DNA of 64,000 bases from Raja brachyura. Taxonomy: Eukaryota. Positions 8,601 to 59,452 of this stretch are shown piece by piece (position 1 is the first letter of the stretch; the number at the start of each line of letters is the position of its first letter). The position numbers and the translations under genes were made by a program. Where the stretch lies: assembly GCA_963514005.1 (NCBI GenBank), contig OY740793.1, forward strand, positions 44,578,001 through 44,642,000, written 5' to 3'. A model generated the notes under the pieces. The model searched no databases. It was not told the origin of the DNA and saw only the letters and a program-made list of their open reading frames with translations.

Positions 8601-10339
8601 ACGACTGTTGTGCCAGGTTTAGTACAAACCACATCATGAAGTACACAGATGACACAACAGTGGTGGGCCTCATCAGGGACGACAATGAGCTGGCTTACAG
8701 GGAGGAGGTGAAACAACTGGCGGACTGGTGCAATACGAACAACCTGATCCTGAATGTCGAGAAAACAAAGGAGGTTATCGTCAACTTCAGGAAAACCCGG
8801 CACAGTCCCACACCACTTCACATCAACGACAGCGATGTGGAGGTGGTCAGTAGCACAAAGTTCCTGGGGGTGCAGATCACTAACAGTCTGACCTGGTCGA
8901 ATAACATCTCATCAACTGTTAAGAGAGCGCAGCAGCAGTTGCACTTTCTGCGCCGGATGAGAAGAGCTCATCTCCCCCATCCCATCCTCACTACTTTCTA
9001 CAGGGGCACCATAGAGAGTATTCTGACCAGCTGTATCTCTGTCTGGTTTGGGGACTGTAGAGCCTCCGACTGGAAGTCTGTGCAGAGAGTGGTGAGGACA
9101 GCGGAAATAATCATCGGGACCTCTCTCCCCCCAATCGGGGATATTGCGACCAAACGCTGTGTGTTTAAGGCCAGCAGTATTATAAAGGACCCCACACATC
9201 TCCATCACGGACTGTTCACTCTGCTGCCCTCGGGAAAAAGATACCGCAGCATAAGGAGCAGAACATCAAGGTTCCGCAACAGCTTCTTCCCACGAGCCAT
9301 CAGACTCCTGAATGCCATGTAATGGGCTGCCACCATTGTCTATTTATCCTTTTCATCCATGCCTATCCTTCGGTTAATTTATTGTGTTGCACAGGGAGCC
9401 AAATGCAACGTAATTTCGTTTGGAACTGCATATATCAATGTATTTCTAAATGACAATAAAGTTTGTTTGACTTTTTTTTACTTTGAGGAGGTTGCAGGGG
9501 GACCTGGACAGGTTGAGTGAGTGGGCAGTGTAATATAGATAAATATGAGGTTATCCACTTTGGCGGCAAAAACAAGGGGGCAGATTATTATCCCATTGGG
9601 GTTAGGTTAGGTAAGAGGGAGGTACAGCGAGACCTGGGTGTCCTTGTACACCAGTCTCTGAAAGTTGGCATGCAGGTACAGCAGGCAGTGAAGAAAGCTA
9701 TTGAAACGTTGGCCTTCATAACAAGAGGATTTCAGTACAGGAGTAAAGAGGTTCTTCTGCAGTTGTATAGGGCTCTGGTGAGACCACATCTGGAGTATTG
9801 TGTACAGTTTTGGTCTCCTAATTTGAGGAAGGACATCCTTGTGATTGCAGTGCAGTGTAGGTTCACGAGATTGATCCCTGGGATGGCGGGACTGTCATAT
9901 GAGGAAAGATTGAAAAGACTAAGCTTGCATTCACTGGAGTTTAGAAGGATGAGGGGGATCTTATAGAAACATATAAAATTATAAAAGGACTGGACAAGCT
10001 AAATGCAGGAAAAATGTTCCCAATGTTGGGTGAGTCCAGAACCAGGGCCCACAGTCTTAGAATAAAGGGGAGGTCATTTAAGACTGAGGTCAGAAAAAAC
10101 TTTACCCAGATAGTTGTGAATTTATGGAATTCCCTGCCACATAGGGCAGTGGAGGCCAAATCACTGGATGGATTTAATAGAGAGTTGGATAGAGTTCTAA
10201 GGGCTAGTGGAGTCTTGTATGGGGAGAAGGCAGGCACGGGTTATTGATAGCGGATGATCAGCCATGATCACAATGAATGGAGGTGCTGGCTCAAAGGGCC
10301 GAATGGCCTCCTCCTGCACCTATTTTCTATGTTTCTATA
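5697..10339 (+). mobile_element. CR1 LINE (RT to 3' tail), split by a Rex1 insertion at 6635-9485
   Basis: CR1 RT motifs [51 protein letters not shown], and the 3' tail TTCTATGTTTCTAT. The halves 5697-6634 and 9486-10339 rejoin as GATGTTAGGAGGTTGCAGG. Confidence 0.9.
6635..9485 (+). mobile_element. Rex1/Babar-clade LINE, second subfamily, 5'-truncated, nested in CR1
   Basis: APE ORF 6618-7643 (LTETW, GDFN, SDH) and RT ORF 8024-9322 ([21 protein letters not shown]). The tail is ACAATAAA...TTTGA. AGG is duplicated at 6632-6634 and 9486-9488. Confidence 0.92.
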
Positions 10340-10469
10340 TAAGGAATTCATAACTAGTCAGTGTAAAAACAAATTGACAAAGAATTCATAACTCGTCAGT
10401 GTAAAAACAAATTGCACACTAATTATTTAAGCTAATTAGAAAAAGTAACAGCGCCCTCATGCTCAATAA

Positions 10470-11910
10470 TCTATATTACTAAAAGTCTGATCTTGACCAC
10501 TTCTTGTTGTTCTGTATATTGATTTTTTTTTAAAACGCTGTCACTTACGGCTGTGATTTTTGGCCACCTTACTCACAGTCCCCCTCCGCTGCACAGGACA
10601 AGAGGATTTTTCCCATTGATGAAAAATAAAAGAGTTATTAGTGTTTAAAATATGTTGAGATTCTCTCTCCTGAAGGCCACACCCCTTCCGGAGGGACTAT
10701 AAAACCCAGAAGTGTTGAGTGCCTCAGTCAGTCTCTGCAAGATGGGCGAGCGAGAGGGTCATGACTCTCAGTCTGAGCTGTGAATAATACTGAACACATA
10801 TCTACTAACTGTGAGAGTTTTTGCTGTCCATTTAGTGCCCTTAATGTGGTTTGAAAATATAGTTTGGAAATGCCACAGCTTTGTTGCCTTTGGTTTGGAA
10901 ATGCTAAACCTGGGTGTCCTTGTACACCAGTCACTGAAAGTTGGCATGCAGGCACAGCAGGCAGTGAAGAAAGCTATTGAAATGTTGGCCTTCATAACAA
11001 GAGGATTTCAGTACAGGAGTAAAGAGGTTCTTCTGCAGTTGTATAGGGCTCTGGTGAGACCACATCTGGAGTATTGTGTACAGTTTTGGTCTCCTAATTT
11101 GAGGAAGGACATCCTTGTGATTGCAGTGCAGTGTAGGTTCACGAGATTGATCCCTGGGATGGCGGGGCTGTCATATGAGGAAAGATTGAAAAGACTAAGC
11201 TTGCATTCACTGGAGTTTAGAAGGATGAGGGGGATCTTATAGAAACATATAAAATTATAAAAGGACTGGACAAGCTAGATACAGGAAAAATGTTCCCAAT
11301 GTTGGGTGAGTCCAGAACCAGGGTCCACAGTCTTAGAATAAAGGGGAGGTCATTTAAGACTGAGGTCAGAAAAAACTTTACCTAGATAGTTGCCTTTCCT
11401 AATTAAAGTTGCCTTGCCTAATTAAAGTTGCCTTGCATAATTAAAGTTGCCTTGCCTTCTATATAATTCAAAGTCTAATCTTGACCACTTCCTGTTTGTG
11501 CTTTATATTAATTTTAGAAAAAATGCTACCACGTACGGCTGTGATTTTTGGCCATCTTACTCAGAGTCCCCCTCTGCTCATCAGGGGCTGAGGATTTTTC
11601 CCATTGATGAGAAATAAAATAGTTATCAGTATTTTAAAAATGTTGAAATTCTCTCTCCTGTCAATCACGCCATGAAGGCCACAGCCCTTCTGGTAGGAGG
11701 GAGGAAGGACTATAAAACCCAGAAGTGTGGGCTCGGCTCAGCCTCTGAAAGTTGGAGGAGGGAGAGGTCATGACTCGCTGTCTTTAGTGGCCATACCCCC
11801 CCCCCCCCCCACTGGCGGCCAATATTGGAATTGGTGGAGAGGTGGAATATTGCATTGGGGACCAGCAGTCCCGTGTGATGCTGGGACCCAACGGGTTCCA
11901 CTTAGTCTAG
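10470..11910 (+). mobile_element. Non-autonomous Helitron carrying a CR1 fragment
   Basis: Inserted between A and T. Starts TCTATATTACTAAAA and ends with the hairpin TGGGACCCAACGGGTTCCA followed by CTAG. Contains an AATTAAAGTTGCCTTGC minisatellite (~11390-11460) and a second copy of its own 5' module (~11458-11780). Confidence 0.8.
10908..11392 (+). mobile_element. CR1 fragment inside the Helitron, a near-identical copy of 9632-10116
   Basis: Direct alignment by eye. ORF 10811-11242 ends with almost the same peptide as ORF 9517-9966. Confidence 0.9.
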
Positions 11911-12170
11911 TATATAGCTGTATAGTACTCTATGGAGAGCTGGATTCCATTCGAGTGTTCAGTGGTAGCGTCGAGACTCAAATGGGAACATTGAATATGG
12001 GACTGCCGCAGAGGACCGGGGTTTCACCTGCACCTGCCTAATTAATGGGTGAGGGCAGATCCTGTGCGTCCCCCCGTTTATTGAACCCCACTGACTGCCG
12101 ATGAGCAGAGTGGTGGTCATGGCCATGGTGGGACTGGGGCAGTGCCACGCTGGGGGACAGACCTATAAGG

Positions 12171-12933
12171 CAGGGATCGGCAACCTTGTTCTGCATTGGG
12201 GCCAGGACCCATGTCTGTGAGCGAATGACGGGCCACATCTATCGCCATCACTAATAAATAGAGGTAATAATAGTCCTAGTTTTGTTTTGAAGGTGCTGTG
12301 CTTAGAGGATGGAGAGGGAGAGGGAGCCCGGTCAACACCAGCCTCCCCTTGCCTCCCCGAGTCTTGGGTGCCCCCAGTGAGGGAGGGTGAGGCATGGGAG
12401 GCTGGGGCCAGGAGGGCGGCTGCCTGCTCGGAGTGTTGGGACTACCACCTGCCACTGCTCGCTATCAAGCCGCCCGACTTCTCGGCGGACATGAGTGACC
12501 GGTCTGCGGGGCTCGCTGGGACGGCAACTGGGCTACGAGGTAGAGGCCCAAACCCCCGCCTCCCCTCCCCATCCACCACATCCCTCCTCCACCCCTTCGC
12601 CTCCCCGCCCGCCACCCAGAAACCCCCGGCGAGGCCAGTCGCAACTGCAAGGCAGAGGCCGAGCTGTCTGATGGGGACAACAAGAGTCTTGAACAGCATG
12701 CTCAACTACAACGCAACCATCAACTGCAACACGAACTCTTCGTCCCTGGACAGCCTGCCCAAGGCACCCTCCTGCCCCCAGACCTACCTGCGGGAAACAC
12801 GTCACAGCTGGGACTCCCCCACCCTCAACAACAACGGCTTCCAGCGGCGGCAGTGCCACATCGGACTAACAAAAACGCTGCCGGCCGGATGATTTCGGGT
12901 TACGGCCCATGGGCGGTAGGTTGCCGACCCCTG
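12171..12933. mobile_element. Non-autonomous hAT (Charlie-like) element carrying a host gene fragment
   Basis: TIRs CAGGGATCGGCAACCT and AGGTTGCCGACCCCTG. 8-bp TSD CTATAAGG (12163-12170) / CTGTAAGG (12934-12941). GGGCC-rich subterminal motifs. Confidence 0.88.
12290..12870 (+). pseudogene. IQSEC2: Captured fragment of an IQSEC (BRAG) ArfGEF exon, most like IQSEC2
   Basis: Translates as HLPLLAIKPP-DFSADMSDRS ... ELSDGDNKSL / NSMLNYNATINCNTNSSSLDSL ... [32 protein letters not shown]. This matches recalled IQSEC2 [21 protein letters not shown] ... [27 protein letters not shown] ... [32 protein letters not shown]. Frameshifted, with strong C-ending codon bias. Confidence 0.8.
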
Positions 12934-13149
12934 CTGTAAGGCATCTTGCACTGAGATAAAATGGCTAATCCTAATACTAACCCTGACCATGACCCTAACC
13001 CTAAATTTTATTTATCATTTTTATTTCACGGTTCACAACATCATATCTTTACATTGATAAATCAGTTGTAAAAAACAAAATTATGAGCAAGTGGTTAGCA
13101 TTACCTTTCTTTCTTCGAAACCTTGCTATAGGGCGATTTATTGTTGTTA

Positions 13150-24325: not shown

Positions 24326-24477
24326 GTAAATCCTGGCGCGGACGGTGCGAAGCCCACGGGGCAGCGAGGCGAAGCTGCGGACAGGAGCGGAGCGGGGCTC
24401 GGATCACCCGGGAATGAGCTGCTGGCTGCCCGGCCCCGGGACTGACCGACAGGCGTCTCCACCCCGCCGGGTGGGGA

Positions 24478-25638
24478 ATGTCCGGCCTCGGTAACGCCAC
24501 CAGCCCCTGCCTGGAGTCAGCGACCCGGGGCGCGACCGCCGCCGCTCTGCTGGAGCTGGGCTTGGGCTCGGCCGTGCTGTGCGCCTCGCTGCTGGGGAAC
24601 GGCCTGGTTCTGGCGGTGTTCCGGAGCAGGCCGCAGCTGCTCCACGTGGCCAACCGCTTCGTCTTCAACCTGCTGCTGGCGGACCTGTTGCAGACGCTGC
24701 TGGTGATGCCGCTGGCGGTGGCGGGCAGTGTGCCCGGGCTCCGACCCCTCGCCGGCGGCCTGTGCAAACTGCTGGTGGTCTCTCTGCATCTGTTCGCCTT
24801 CGCCGGCGTCCACAGCACGGTGCTGGTGTCCATCGACCGCTACCTGGCCATCATGCACCCCTTGTCCTACCCCGCCCGCATGACGCCCCGCCGGGCATCC
24901 AGCCTGATCGCGCTGAGCTGGGCGCTGGGCGCTGCACAGAGCACGCCGCCGCTCTACGGCTGGGGCCGGGTGGCCGCTGACGGCTGCTCCTCCTGCCGCC
25001 TTCTCTGGGCCTCCAGCCCCTCCTACACGCTGCTCACCGCGCTGCTCGCCTTCTGGCTGCCGGCCGGCATCATGCTCCGCTGCTACTGGCTGGTGTTCCG
25101 GGCGGCTCGGCGACAGAACGCCCGGGTGCAGCCGGCGCTGGCCCGGAGCCCGGGCGGGGAGAAGCGCCGGGGTCGGGGCCCGCCTCGCCGCTCCCATTGC
25201 AAGGCAGCGCGGGTGGTGTTCGTCACCGTGGCCTCGCACCTCCTAGGCATGGGCCCATACAGCGTCCTGGGCACCGTGTCGGCGGCCGGGGCCCAGCCAC
25301 CCGCACCCTGGCTCGGCGCCGCCGCCCTCATCCTGCTGCATTCGCGGTGCTGCGCGCACCCCTACATCTACGGGTACCTCCACCGGGGCATCCGCCGGGA
25401 GCTGCTCCTCCTCCTGCCCGCCGCCTGCTGCCGCCCACCGGCGCCCGGCCTCTCGCCCTCCACCCCGACCGGCGCCAGGGCTCCCCGGGCCGCTCCCCGC
25501 GTCTCTGCCCCGACATCCTGGGCAGAGGCTTCGGTCACTGCAGCCGCGGCCACTGGCGGCCGCAGGGACACCGTGTCGACCAGCTGCAGCTCAGACAACG
25601 AGCTGCACCTCCTGCCCGGTCACAGGGCCGACCGGTGA
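24478..25638 (+). CDS. GPR101: Orphan class A GPCR GPR101, single coding exon, 386 aa
   Basis: Seven TM segments with GPR101 signatures: RPQLLHVANRFVFNLLLADLLQ, HLFAFA, SIDRYLAIMHPLSYPARMT, QSTPPLYGWG, W..SPSYT, AARRQ, HCKAARVVF, GPY, CCAHPYIYGYLH. N-glycosylation site NAT. Confidence 0.95.
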   Translation: MSGLGNATSPCLESATRGATAAALLELGLGSAVLCASLLGNGLVLAVFRSRPQLLHVANRFVFNLLLADLLQTLLVMPLAVAGSVPGLRPLAGGLCKLLVVSLHLFAFAGVHSTVLVSIDRYLAIMHPLSYPARMTPRRASSLIALSWALGAAQSTPPLYGWGRVAADGCSSCRLLWASSPSYTLLTALLAFWLPAGIMLRCYWLVFRAARRQNARVQPALARSPGGEKRRGRGPPRRSHCKAARVVFVTVASHLLGMGPYSVLGTVSAAGAQPPAPWLGAAALILLHSRCCAHPYIYGYLHRGIRRELLLLLPAACCRPPAPGLSPSTPTGARAPRAAPRVSAPTSWAEASVTAAAATGGRRDTVSTSCSSDNELHLLPGHRADR

Positions 25639-56700: not shown

Positions 56701-59452
56701 CAAATCCCCATTATAACGCTGCAGAAGAAAACCAGGACGCTGAAGATTCTCAATGGAATTTGAGATCTTGGACACCAGGAACAAAACGAACATGGTGAAG
56801 AATAAAATGAACTGCAGACCATGACCATTTGAGATAGAATGAGTTAGTGCAATGTTGGGGAAAAAAATATTCTTCAAAGCTGCCCGATGTCTTGCTACAC
56901 TTGTGAAGAAGTCGCACATCTTGTGTGTCAAAGCCTTACTCCCGAGAATGGCTGGGTGCTGGCTCTTCTAGCAAGATTCAGCACAGGATTTATCAATGTT
57001 TATCTGTAACATAGATGGCTTCAAAACCTTTTCATCGTTCATTCACCACAAAGTCTGATTAATTCATTGCAATATCAAGATAAATAAGGACAAGTAGCCC
57101 AGTGGAGCATTACTTACTCTTGTACATTCGAGCAGAAACATATCCTGCAGGTGTTCCTAGCAAGACCCAGAGGACAACGGCACAGGTCATCAGTGCTCCT
57201 CGGTTTGCAGGCGAAAGGAACCCAAGGCAAGCAAGGACTATAGGGTGAGAGAAAGAGAAATATCTCAACGTTTCATGTCTCTATCGGGCAAGAGCTGAGC
57301 ACTTTAAAGGAGTGCTCAAGTTTGATTCATCGATTATGAACGATGTCAAGCAACAATGTGACTCACCACACACCCTATCACCCCACCCCCCCCATCACTT
57401 TCATCAGTAAGTGAAATAATCATCATGACTTTTCCGTGAACTTGTTGGATTATTACACACTTAATAAAATTATAAACCTCCCATTCAACACTGGCTGTGA
57501 TGGTGAAAGCATCCAGAAGTAACTATAGAGGTAACCTTTTCACGTGGACCACGCCCCTTCATGGGTAACACTTAGCTACATTTTACACTTTATGGAACTG
57601 CCTACAATATTTTGAAGATAAATGCAATATAGTCAATCTTATGAAACGTTCAAAAGCAAAAGCATTAAAAGCAATATATGAACATCACAAAACGAACTCA
57701 CACCAATCTCTTGGCATTAATGACACTTTAACACTTACAAAGAGTGATAAACATCATAATGAAGATCTGTGTTCCTTGACCGAGGAAAACAGATAATAGC
57801 ATTCCTTTCCTGGGGGGTCTGAAGATATCTCCGTGCACCAATTTCCAACCAAATTCTTCCTGGGCATCCTCCTGCAGAGACATCATGTGCATTGGTGTTA
57901 GAGAAAAAATAAATACCTGCATTCATTTACAAAAGTTGGGCAGGGCTTCAGAAAGTAAATCATATCACAGTGGAGTTTTTACGTGTACTAACTCCAAAGA
58001 TGGAATTTAGCAGCTTAGTTTGTATATTCAGTAAAATCTCACATTGGAATCTGGCTTCATGGTGAATTTAGATGTTCCCCACAGCTTTAAATGTTGGAAA
58101 ATTTAGACATTTCCTCAAACTGACACCATAGATATGCAGAATCATTCCAAACGGGCTTAAAATTATAGTGCTGCAGATATTGGAAATCCGAGGTAAAACT
58201 AAAAATGCTGCAAATTATGATCAAGTTGTGGAGATCAGAATTTCAGCTCAATAACAAGCTGCTCTCTGAAAAAATCAGTTGGGTTTCTCTTTCTCATGAT
58301 ATTGCCTGACCTTTTTGAATGTTTCTCGCATTTTCTAAGAAAATGTCATGCTACAAGAAGTTTAACAAGTGTGGGAGAAAAATTAAAGGACTAAGAGATG
58401 ACAGTGCCTCTGGGAGTAAGGGATGCAAAGCCTGGTCTCTCCAGTAACTACAGGGGGGAAAGTCAGTTTTACTATCCTGACAAATTAGAAATTACAGAAA
58501 CAGCTGAGAAGGAAGAGGAAAACATGACACTTTGGAAACCAATAATGAATCAATGATAAGATCCAATGGAAAACTGATCTTTGTATAAACGGGACTGGGA
58601 GCATGCTTACAATACATTGGTCGAACCACTACTAGTAGTACTTGTCAATGCATCGGATTTCAAATATTAATTTAGAAAAGGATGACGTGTTGTATTCCAC
58701 ACAAGGTGCTTTGAGGTTTTCAAGACATTGCAGCGAAGTAAAAGTGGATTGTAAAACCACCAGTAGTCAAGTAGTCTAGAACAAGGAACAATGTCCAAAA
58801 AATGAGAGCAAAGCCTTAAGCAAGAGCAAGGATGAGCCCACACTGACCGTTGCCCACATACAAAAGCACAAGTCAACTGCAGAATTTTGGAATACCTGCA
58901 AACAGCAAATAAGGCAAAGTCATTGATACATTTTTAATTAACATGAAGGGATATGAAGGATAGCTTGGTGGAGCTTTGCGAGTCAAATGAGGTTAACGAA
59001 CCCTGTAAATCATTCCTTTAATTTAGAAAAGTGACAGAAGAATCACAGGGGAGATCAAGATGCAAGCGTAGAGGGAAATAAGAGGAATGATAATGAAAGG
59101 ATTGCTCCCAAGGAGCTGGCATAAACCAGAAGGGCTGAATTGTCACATTCTGTCATAATAAATAATTGTTGTCGGAACACAAGAATAAAATAGGGGAAGA
59201 AGTGAATCAAAGACTTATTCATGTGATAATGATTAACTGTAGCAAAGATCAAGCAAGCATTGTGCGGGGAAGAACAAATTAAGCCACATTGCATTGTCTC
59301 CAAGACATAATTATCACCACCGTTTAGCCACAATAGTACATACCGCTGAGTCAATCTGATTGTATCTAGCAATATCTTTGTGTAGAGTCCGCAGCATAAT
59401 CATTGCCACCATTCCAGACAAGAAGAGGACAATCACAAGGGAATTCATAATA
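29719..59452 (-). CDS. TM9SF5: Transmembrane 9 superfamily protein, TM9SF2-like, probably TM9SF5; 3' part with 9 coding exons, 5' exons outside the window
   Basis: Exons 59344-59452, 57739-57871, 57118-57237, 55329-55386, 53919-54078, 50747-50898, 47102-47213, 45104-45275 and 29719-29786. All are GT-AG and splice in frame, from [32 protein letters not shown] to IYSVVKVD*. Confidence 0.9.
30275..30460. mobile_element. Solo Tc1 ITR of the same family as 33188-34844
   Basis: Ends ...CAAACATTATGGAGGGCACTG followed by TA. Confidence 0.8.
31877..32160 (+). mobile_element. Degenerate tRNA-derived V-SINE
   Basis: A/B-box-like head CAGTGGTGCTGCAGTTAG...GGGTTTGATCCTG and GTAGGTTAACTGGC core. Confidence 0.5.
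32660..33178 (+). mobile_element. Penelope element 3' part: GIY-YIG endonuclease and terminal repeat with a hammerhead motif (~33081-33120)
   Basis: [30 protein letters not shown]...PVAQHFN...EQHLIFRLG, followed by CTGAAGAAGGGTATCAACCCGAAACGTC. Confidence 0.9.
33188..34844 (-). mobile_element. Tc1 transposon with both long ITRs and a degenerate transposase
   Basis: TA-CAGTGCCCTCCATAAT ... ATTATGGAGGGCACTG-TA. ITRs are over 200 bp. Transposase remnants on - start near 34465. Confidence 0.9.
35545..39147 (-). mobile_element. Long degenerate CR1 (APE endonuclease to 3' tail) with nested insertions
   Basis: [20 protein letters not shown] (ORF 38560-39231), [30 protein letters not shown], and a CATAGAAA tail. 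A second CR1 3' fragment is inserted at ~38030-38415. Confidence 0.88.
37226..37659 (+). mobile_element. Non-autonomous bipartite RTE-derived element (RTE 5' UTR joined to a 3' tail)
   Basis: 13-bp TSD GACTTCCTTAGTG (37213-37225 / 37660-37672). The 5' part CACCTTGTCGTGGTGG...CCTGGTAGGGTCACCCATGGC...CTGACAAAGA resembles Expander/BovB 5' UTRs. TAAGAA tail and no ORF. Confidence 0.72.
40283..40450. mobile_element. Fold-back mini-Penelope insertion
   Basis: Inverted terminal-repeat halves. TSD CATC(T/G)TCAGCAG at 40271-40282 / 40451-40462. Confidence 0.7.
42070..42300. mobile_element. Older fold-back Penelope remnant
   Basis: Degenerate inverted pair of terminal repeats (GCTGGCGAACTCAGTGGGTCAGG... 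/ GTCTGAAAGGCCCCGACCTGAAAC). Confidence 0.55.
44281..44928. mobile_element. PIF/Harbinger-type non-autonomous element with a nested fold-back Penelope (~44635-44826)
   Basis: TIRs AGGGCCTTTCCCACTT / AAGTGGGACAGGCCCT and TTA TSD (44278-44280 / 44929-44931). Confidence 0.78.
45104..45275 (-). CDS. TM9SF5: TM9SF2-like/TM9SF5 exon, 172 bp
   Basis: ag|[57 protein letters not shown]|gtaaga. Confidence 0.93.
45668..45800 (-). mobile_element. Penelope terminal-repeat insertion with a hammerhead motif
   Basis: Flanked by a CAGTGGCTGTTTT duplication. Contains the reverse complement of GTCTGAAGAAGGGTCTCGACCCGAAACGTCACC. Confidence 0.75.
47102..47213 (-). CDS. TM9SF5: TM9SF2-like/TM9SF5 exon, 112 bp
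   Basis: ag|[37 protein letters not shown]|gtgcgt. Confidence 0.93.
47338..47499. mobile_element. Fold-back mini-Penelope insertion
   Basis: 15-bp TSD TTGCAATGAACATAA (47323-47337 / 47500-47514) and inverted halves. Confidence 0.72.
48900..50478 (+). mobile_element. Old CR1 fragments (~48900-49530 and ~49965-50478)
   Basis: [32 protein letters not shown] and a CR1 3' UTR. Confidence 0.7.
50747..50898 (-). CDS. TM9SF5: TM9SF2-like/TM9SF5 exon, 152 bp
   Basis: ag|[50 protein letters not shown](W)|gtgagt. Confidence 0.93.
51156..51977 (-). mobile_element. Young-looking 5'-truncated CR1
   Basis: ORFs 51556-51975 and 51254-51559 give a well-preserved RT C-terminus. (TTCTATGT)n tail. Confidence 0.92.
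52743..53728. mobile_element. Penelope insertion with internal inversion (- strand part ~52743-53300, + strand part ~53305-53728); hammerhead motif at ~53592-53630
   Basis: 13-bp TSD TGTGTAATGACTG (52730-52742 / 53729-53741). GIY-YIG C-terminal motifs on both strands. Confidence 0.85.
53919..54078 (-). CDS. TM9SF5: TM9SF2-like/TM9SF5 exon, 160 bp
   Basis: ag|[53 protein letters not shown]|gtgagt. Confidence 0.93.
54740..55223 (+). mobile_element. Probable short non-autonomous Helitron
   Basis: 3' end AGACCCAATGGGTGT...TTGGTCTAG|T resembles the Helitron end at 11910. The 5' boundary is uncertain. Confidence 0.55.
55329..55386 (-). CDS. TM9SF5: TM9SF2-like/TM9SF5 exon, 58 bp
   Basis: ag|(T)[18 protein letters not shown](G)|gttagt. 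Confidence 0.92.
55980..56515 (-). mobile_element. tRNA-derived V-SINE (HE1-like), interrupted by a MITE
   Basis: B-box GGTTCGATTC, V-domain GTTTTCCTCCAACACTCAAAGA...GTAGGTTAATTGGC, and a CR1-like 3' tail. Confidence 0.8.
56251..56489. mobile_element. Palindromic PIF/Harbinger MITE
   Basis: TIRs AGGGCCTGTCCCA / TGGGACAGGCCCT and TAA TSD (56248-56250 / 56490-56492). Confidence 0.85.
57118..57237 (-). CDS. TM9SF5: TM9SF2-like/TM9SF5 exon, 120 bp
   Basis: ag|(F)[39 protein letters not shown]|gtaagt. Confidence 0.93.
57739..57871 (-). CDS. TM9SF5: TM9SF2-like/TM9SF5 exon, 133 bp
   Basis: ag|[44 protein letters not shown]|gtaagt. Confidence 0.93.
59344..59452 (-). CDS. TM9SF5: TM9SF2-like/TM9SF5 exon, 109 bp
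   Basis: ag|[36 protein letters not shown]|gtatgt. Confidence 0.92.

What the first reader, a model, noticed from the sequence alone, without database searches (positions are those of the whole stretch)
12171..12933. Pack-TIR: a hAT element carrying a captured IQSEC2 coding fragment
Seen in the sequence: a 763-bp element with 16-bp hAT TIRs and an 8-bp TSD, whose interior (~12290-12870) is GC3-biased coding-like DNA rather than transposase. From recalled knowledge, the peptide blocks HLPLLAIKPP/DMSDRS, SDGDNKSL-N...TINC...SSSLDSL and [14 protein letters not shown]...NN...QRR..HIGL match the region just before the Sec7 domain of IQSEC2. [10 protein letters not shown] favours IQSEC2 over IQSEC1 or IQSEC3. 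Inference: a DNA transposon picked up part of a large exon of a synaptic ArfGEF gene and moved it. Pack-type capture is well known in plants but much less documented in vertebrates. If the element is multicopy, it is a gene-fragment-carrying MITE family and a possible source of antisense or small RNAs against IQSEC2.
Basis: partly seen in the sequence, partly recalled or inferred. Interest (0 to 1): 0.85.

Follow-up and report, generated by a model that had tools for sequence, protein, structure and literature searches.

The report
Transposon carrying an IQSEC2 exon piece
In what is likely a skate or ray genome, a decaying cut-and-paste transposon carries a 570-base piece of the synapse gene IQSEC2 at 22 places, likely picked up during DNA repair, and the source gene is missing from the assembly, likely because its GC-rich region was poorly assembled.

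Summary
Confirmed. Window 12171-12933 is a 763-bp non-autonomous hAT element (TIRs 15/16, TSD 7/8). About 570 bp of its interior is the 3' part of the large IQSEC2 exon: the best hits are shark IQSEC2 proteins, and a tree groups it with them (99/96). The same cargo lies at 22 loci, from at most 19 independent insertions. The copies form a star-like tree, are about 10% from their column majority and decay neutrally. I found the autonomous partner, a 2.4-kb Buster-type element with the same ends and an open 599-aa transposase frame. The element consists of 102 bp of partner end, a 24-bp patch of the transposase gene, the cargo, and about 80 bp of partner end (65 bp in the window copy), the pattern expected from template switching. 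The same ends carry other multicopy interiors. No IQSEC2 gene is in the assembly. Its presumed neighbours sit on 37-kb and 65-kb GC-rich scraps, so an assembly gap is likelier than true loss (about 25%). Pack-TIRs, including multicopy hAT cases, are known (Tan 2021). This is an unusually large coding-exon case in a cartilaginous fish, with no evidence of function.

The parts
12163..12170 (.). Left target-site duplication CTATAAGG (centre TA, Buster-type)
   Evidence: 7/8 match to the right copy
12171..12272 (+). Transposon end, 102 bp including the 16-bp TIR (12171-12186); it is the 3' end of the autonomous partner
   Evidence: 92% to the partner's column majority over 102 bp; cargo-family majority 98%
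12272..12295 (-). 24-bp patch copied from inside the transposase ORF (partner positions 783-806)
   Evidence: majority of copies identical to the partner majority at 24/24, E 7e-8; present in 3 of 5 partner copies by exact-word look-up
12296..12868 (+). Captured 3' part of the large IQSEC2 coding exon, from the LYLEE motif to the RIGL motif, stopping about 15 bp short of the exon end; antisense to the transposase; window copy has 4 frameshifts against the majority
   Evidence: exon end read from the paralogous IQSEC1 exon
12869..12933 (+). Transposon end (about 80 bp in the majority, 65 bp here) including the 16-bp TIR (12918-12933); it is the 5' end of the autonomous partner
   Evidence: majority 90% to partner over 80 bp
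12934..12941 (.). Right target-site duplication CTGTAAGG
12221..12892 (+). 223-codon stop-to-stop frame through the cargo; mixes in-frame and out-of-frame IQSEC2 blocks and is likely a by-product of high GC, not a gene
   Evidence: other copies have open frames of up to 212 codons
11908..12162 (+). Flank shared (about 81%) with the copies on C7 and C9, which also have the same target site; the three are likely one insertion copied inside a larger unit

Best explanation
This is a dead, non-autonomous Buster-type hAT transposon that carries about 570 bp of the large IQSEC2 exon at 22 genomic places; it likely arose once by template switching during repair of a broken element and was then likely spread by the partner transposase, and its donor gene likely lies in an unassembled GC-rich region. 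Shown: ends shared with a full-length partner that has an open transposase frame; a three-part interior (end, transposase patch, exon piece); distinct target-site duplications; neutral decay; no IQSEC2 in the assembly. Inferred: repair synthesis ran 102 bp in from one end, jumped to the middle of the transposase gene for 24 bp, jumped to the IQSEC2 exon for about 570 bp, and rejoined about 80 bp from the other end. The product kept both ends and was cut and pasted in one burst before the three organisms whose runs were laid diverged. It has no function today.
For: 22 loci on 14 contigs, with 23 of 23 candidates scored. Ten copies with both ends have 10 different TSDs, 8 of 10 matching at 7/8 or better. 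TA sits at the target centre in 30 of 37 family flanks, the Buster consensus (PMC3517528, passages). Partner L181 is 2419 bp with TSD 7/8 and an open 599-aa frame; it has a Spin-doc zinc finger and a sub-cut-off DUF4371 match, and its nearest clusters are GTF2IRD2/FAM200-like at 0.98. The 24/24 transposase patch is at the left junction. Top hits are shark IQSEC2-like proteins at E 1e-26. The tree puts the cargo with shark IQSEC2 at 99/96 and on the IQSEC2 side at 100/100. Copies form a star-like tree, with N/S rate ratio 0.84, 57 frameshifting indels and 13 stops in 21 copies. IQSEC exons occur only at C16 and C20. SMC1A-like and KDM5C-like exons lie on 37-kb and 65-kb contigs with GC3 0.89 and 0.86, like the cargo's 0.84-0.89 and unlike single exons of their paralogs at 0.35-0.49.
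Against: The donor DNA is not in hand, so microhomology at the two cargo junctions, the capture date and DNA versus RNA template are untested. No IQSEC2 exon was found on any contig, scraps included, and no ray or skate IQSEC2 was among the 120 listed hits; both fit true loss too. The KDM5C-IQSEC2-SMC1A neighbourhood is recalled from mammals, not tested in sharks or rays. The cargo branch is long (0.78) and the tree tool flags long rows as unsure. Mobilisation by this transposase is inferred from shared ends only.
Confidence: 0.72

Rival explanations
1. Same element and mechanism, but IQSEC2 was truly lost in this lineage and the transposon cargo is its last trace, frozen while the gene was already drifting.
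For: No IQ, Sec7 or PH exon of a third IQSEC gene in searches where all candidates were scored (49/49, 29/29, 16/16). No batoid-named IQSEC2 among the 120 listed of 974 hits, although ray IQSEC1 proteins are in that database. The cargo majority differs at positions nearly fixed in 239 IQSEC1/2 proteins: K to P (K in 235 of 239), Q/H to L and A to T (L and T in 0 of 239).
Against: Both presumed neighbours are themselves broken on small GC-rich contigs. Several shark IQSEC2 records also sit on short contigs (247 kb, 110 kb, and a 5-kb partial), and only four shark species appear in the list. The majority keeps its frame through both alignable blocks (90 and 79 codons, no stop), so the donor was still coding. 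Proline-rich shifts are what GC-biased evolution would give (my inference).
Confidence: 0.22
2. One or more copies were co-opted as a source of antisense or small RNA that regulates IQSEC2, or as an exon of a host gene.
For: The cargo lies antisense to the transposase direction. The window copy has a 223-codon open frame. The L007 copy is nearly unchanged in runs of two other organisms (4 differences in 418 bp; 3 in 184 bp).
Against: Neutral substitution pattern and many frameshifts. Only about 80 of the roughly 320 bp upstream of the transposase start are kept. Copies are only 77-86% identical to the three copies they were compared against, poor for small-RNA pairing. No Rfam match in 6 loci.
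Confidence: 0.04
3. The cargo was copied from an IQSEC2 mRNA or is a retrocopy that landed in the element.
For: The fragment lies wholly inside one exon, so it has no intron to prove a DNA template.
Against: No exon-exon joint, no poly(A) of its own, and no internal TSD seen on reading the junctions. The fragment ends mid-exon, far from the mRNA 3' end, and is fused to a transposase patch, which fits repair synthesis.
Confidence: 0.02

Closest known systems
Multicopy Pack-TIRs of frog and alligator, e.g. Pack-hAT-N8_XT (Tan et al. 2021, PMC8277862; read: abstract, Results sections 6-9, supplement word search)
   Same: A non-autonomous hAT carrying a host fragment, spread by repeated transposition with distinct TSDs to distant sites; template switching proposed; GC-rich donors (their Supplementary Fig. 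17 legend).
   Different: 22 loci against three in their example, which carried 291 bp of 5' UTR; here about 570 bp of coding exon. Only 4 of their cases were multicopy. Their one cartilaginous fish row seen (elephant shark) had 0, and IQSEC does not occur in their 12 supplementary files held. The parent copy, which their pipeline requires, is missing here.
[quoted passage not shown]
   Same: 8-bp nnnTAnnn TSD, 14-16-bp TIRs, about 2.4-3 kb full length, one ORF of about 600 aa related to GTF2IRD2-like proteins.
   Different: Mar MITEs are deletion derivatives; this family also swaps its interior for foreign DNA, in at least three multicopy types.
Plant Pack-TYPE elements (Pack-MULE, Pack-hAT; PMC8903248, search listing only) and maize Ds gap-repair derivatives (recalled)
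   Same: Shared ends, varied captured interiors, patchwork fillers.
   Different: Vertebrate host; no sign here of chimeric multi-gene cargos or of expression.
Shark IQSEC2-like proteins (XP_078061365.1, XP_041035586.1)
   Same: 77-79% identity over the 78-aa C-terminal block, against 60% for IQSEC1; shark-like motifs in the N-terminal block.
   Different: Only the disordered pre-Sec7 stretch is carried, with no IQ, Sec7 or PH domain; several otherwise fixed residues differ.

Membership tests
hAT superfamily, non-autonomous element | Short TIRs (5-27 bp) | tested here: met
   16-bp TIRs, 15/16 in the window; range from PMC3517528
hAT superfamily, non-autonomous element | 8-bp TSD, different at each insertion | tested here: met
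   10 different TSDs in 10 two-ended cargo copies, 8 of 10 at 7/8 or better
hAT superfamily, non-autonomous element | Autonomous partner with the same ends encoding a hAT transposase | tested here: met
   L181, 2419 bp, open 599-aa frame; ends 98% and 90% to the cargo family. PF05699 itself was not matched on this protein.
hAT superfamily, non-autonomous element | Mobilisation by that transposase | not testable with these tools
   needs an excision or integration assay
Buster family | nnnTAnnn target consensus | tested here: met
   30 of 37 flanks against 5% background; consensus from PMC3517528
Buster family | Transposase falls in the Buster clade | tested here: inconclusive
   nearest clusters are GTF2IRD2/FAM200/ZBED5-like and it has a Spin-doc finger, but no tree with named Buster and Ac transposases was built
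Pack-TIR (Tan 2021) | Non-transposon host sequence between the TE ends | tested here: met
   IQSEC2 exon piece
Pack-TIR (Tan 2021) | Parental copy identified in the same genome | tested here: inconclusive
   no IQSEC2 in the assembly, but the presumed neighbourhood is fragmentary; orthologues in sharks identify the gene
Pack-TIR (Tan 2021) | Microhomology at breakpoints | tested here: inconclusive
   a 3-bp overlap fits the end-to-patch junction on reading; the two cargo junctions need donor DNA
Multicopy Pack-TIR | Several distal copies with distinct TSDs | tested here: met
   22 loci, at most 19 independent
IQSEC2 (versus IQSEC1/3) | Orthology of the cargo | tested here: met
   best hits and tree; the host's C20 paralog exon did not align to either cargo block and was left out of the tree

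The most novel reading that the evidence does not exclude
Skates or rays have truly lost the synaptic gene IQSEC2, and a plant-style Pack-hAT family, which repeatedly swapped its interior for GC-rich host DNA and amplified each version, preserved 22 copies of one of its exons: a transposon-borne fossil that dates the loss and records the gene drifting before it vanished.
Probability: 0.2. Interest if true: 0.7.

Novelty: new member of a known kind. Interest (0 to 1): 0.42.

Why it matters
It extends transposition-driven gene-fragment capture to cartilaginous fishes, where the one survey read here listed none. It does so at a scale (22 loci, several cargo types, partner with an open frame) closer to plant Pack elements than to the four small vertebrate multicopy cases in that survey. 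The three-part interior is a clean record of multi-step template switching. Practically, the cargo reveals a gene that the assembly lacks and gives probes to settle whether IQSEC2 is hidden or lost in this lineage. It also warns that these copies can be mis-annotated as IQSEC genes. There is no sign of a new function.

Tried and rejected
The window peptide alone found no homolog at E<=0.001 among 1618 candidates and no Pfam family; a profile of 11 copy pieces was needed. A 17-row alignment mixing both cargo blocks misaligned and was dropped. IQSEC1 as donor was rejected: 61% DNA identity over 193 bp, GC3 0.40. The copy on C1613 as the parent was rejected because it continues into the transposon end. 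The 30 best hAT dimerisation-domain loci (of 150 scored, 1667 candidates) had none of this element's ends within 1.5 kb; the partner was found through shared ends instead. Contigs C1422 and C242 hold no IQSEC match. Laying four runs on the L007 copy to catch the parent exon as a loose end gave no answer: only 24 of 385 loose ends were shown, all at the transposon ends. No RNA holder was listed, which says nothing about expression. Whole-protein searches of the genome returned no result, so domain-sized queries were used. No PDB relative of the transposase at E<=1. No Rfam match in 6 loci. The wider protein library gave 27 hits, none closer than known IQSEC2 proteins. Literature: 'Pack-TIR' occurs in 3 papers. 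'IQSEC2' with 'shark' gives 10 papers, none on this by title or abstract start. None of the 15 listed of 117 holds IQSEC2. IQSEC2 has 0 hits in the 4 supplements held of PMC10208646 and in the text of PMC12954441. Subscription papers and repeat libraries (Repbase, Dfam) were not searchable, so the family may already be catalogued there.

Full report
Observation. The window holds a 763-bp element at 12171-12933 with 16-bp terminal inverted repeats (15/16) and flanking 8-mers matching at 7 of 8. Random window 8-mer pairs do as well at 0.00046. It lies among LINE-like debris about 11.5 kb upstream of an intronless GPCR frame. The host is a cartilaginous fish, likely a skate or ray: its IQSEC1 exon region is 96% identical to two ray proteins and 94% to a shark's.

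Copies. A genome search with the element found the interior at many sites at 72-90% identity. A second search with another copy's interior scored all 23 candidates and gave 22 loci on 14 contigs. Ten copies keep both ends; their TSDs all differ and 8 of 10 match at 7/8 or better. The window copy and those on C7 and C9 share flanks and target site, and the C21 pair is nearly identical, so at most 19 insertions are independent. The tree of copies is star-like. Mean K2P distance to the column majority is 0.104, or 0.077 without CpG sites; the window copy is at 0.12. In the coding blocks, 21 copies (one of the C21 pair left out) show an N/S rate ratio of 0.84, 57 frameshifting against 33 in-frame indels, and 13 new stops: neutral decay. 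The L007 copy is nearly identical in runs labelled as three organisms, so at least that insertion predates their split. I have no calibrated rate and give no date.

Cargo. The column majority reads as an open IQSEC frame in two blocks of 90 and 79 codons, with one slip in a C-rich run that aligns poorly. A profile of 11 copy pieces found 974 proteins among 8000 scored candidates. The top four are from sharks, two named IQSEC2-like, E 1e-26 to 1e-25. The C-terminal block is 77-79% identical to these and 60% to IQSEC1. In a 19-row tree the cargo joins shark IQSEC2 (99/96) on the IQSEC2 side of a 100/100 branch; its branch is long (0.78) and flagged, and IQSEC3 was left out as unalignable. The piece is the 3' part of the large exon, ending about 15 bp before the splice donor seen in the IQSEC1 exon. 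It has no IQ, Sec7 or PH domain.

Autonomous partner. The same ends recur widely: 1888 and 2450 first-look candidates, which are not copy numbers. Among 32 such loci examined, 13 share interior B, 4 interior C, 5 type D, 2 are short and near-empty; the other 8 were unassigned or had no left end found. Type D is the autonomous element. L181 is 2419 bp with a 7/8 TSD and an open 599-aa frame. It has a Spin-doc zinc finger above cut-off and DUF4371 below it, and its nearest clusters are GTF2IRD2/FAM200-like at 0.98. Target sites have TA at the centre in 30 of 37 flanks, the Buster consensus given in PMC3517528 (passages read). Size and TIR length match Buster elements in PMC12637253 (passages read).

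Mechanism. Aligned to the partner, the cargo family consists of 102 bp of one end (98%), then 24 bp identical to positions 783-806 inside the transposase gene, then the IQSEC2 piece, then 80 bp of the other end (90%). That much is shown. I infer that repair synthesis across a broken or excised element switched templates three times, and that the product, keeping both ends, was spread by the partner in one burst. A 3-bp overlap fits the first switch; the two cargo junctions cannot be read without donor DNA. The A-run at the right junction belongs to the transposon, so there is no poly(A). The cargo is antisense to the transposase, but most of the partner's upstream region is gone.

Missing donor. 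Searches with the IQSEC1 exon (49 of 49 candidates scored), the shark IQSEC2 Sec7 region (29 of 29) and the IQSEC PH family (16 of 16) found IQSEC genes only on C16 (IQSEC1) and C20 (read as IQSEC3; label recalled). In mammals IQSEC2 lies between KDM5C and SMC1A (recalled). An SMC1-type gene and a KDM5-type exon, which I read as SMC1A and KDM5C from recalled motifs and elimination, sit broken on unplaced contigs of 37 and 65 kb. Their exons have GC3 0.89 and 0.86, like the cargo (0.84, 0.89) and unlike single exons of their paralogs (0.35-0.49) and IQSEC1 (0.40). An assembly gap is therefore the likelier reading. Against it: no IQSEC2 exon turned up on any scrap, no ray or skate IQSEC2 was among the 120 listed hits, and the cargo differs at residues nearly fixed in 239 relatives. 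Laying reads did not settle it. I put true loss at about one in four to five.

Comparison and novelty. Tan et al. 2021 (PMC8277862; abstract, Results sections 6-9, supplement search) report 370 Pack-TIRs in 100 animal genomes, 208 of them hAT, only four multicopy. Their frog example has three copies of a 291-bp UTR piece, elephant shark has none, and IQSEC does not appear in the supplements held. This element works like their multicopy class and meets its tests, except that the parent copy is not in the assembly. It is a new member of a known kind, notable for copy number, coding cargo, sister cargos and host group. Earlier scan notes showed three other Pack-type cases in other genomes and none like this sequence. 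Repeat libraries and subscription papers were not searchable.

Verdict. Observation confirmed; interpretation supported except for any regulatory role. Interest 0.42; the bold reading (a fossil of a lost IQSEC2) has probability 0.2 and would merit 0.7.

Noticed in passing
L181:106-2524 (G000:C8:53813305-53815723): Full-length Buster-type hAT with an open 599-aa transposase frame, although partner copies are only about 89-91% identical to each other; L179 and L180 are further near-full copies.
   Followed up: yes
L027, L149, L153, L155, L157, L161, L162, L164, L165, L167, L168, L170, L172: Interior type B, in 13 of 32 sampled end-sharing loci: a CT-rich tract plus a CpG-island piece (GC 0.71, CpG o/e 0.85) that reads like a captured promoter and first exon with start codon and splice donor (motifs recalled). 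Donor not searched.
   Followed up: partly
L029, L150, L171, L175, L177: Interior type C, multicopy, AT-rich with an AC microsatellite; origin unknown.
   Followed up: partly
window 9929-10475 and 11908-12162; L192, L194: The window copy and two others share several hundred bases of flank and one target site, yet are no closer to each other than to other copies; a larger unit was likely duplicated around the time of the burst. The window's flank is split by a later insertion of about 1.4 kb whose end looks Helitron-like (recalled).
   Followed up: partly
G000:C1422 (L114-L117) and G000:C242 (L211-L217): SMC1A-like and KDM5C-like genes are broken on small GC-rich unplaced contigs, suggesting a poorly assembled GC-rich chromosome region.
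   Followed up: partly
window 24418-25638 (+): Intronless GC-rich rhodopsin-family GPCR frame (Pfam 7tm_1, E 4e-45) in a CpG island; looks like GPR101 (label recalled).
   Followed up: partly
window 58990-59005 (-): A 3-mismatch match to the TIR, within chance expectation (0.52 expected).
   Followed up: no
L130, L132, L135, L136, L145 and others: A separate hAT family with several open frames of 530-790 codons and near-equal scores, possibly recently active; it does not share this element's ends.
   Followed up: no
P0125: A catshark protein named IQSEC1-like groups with IQSEC2 in the tree; likely misnamed.
   Followed up: partly
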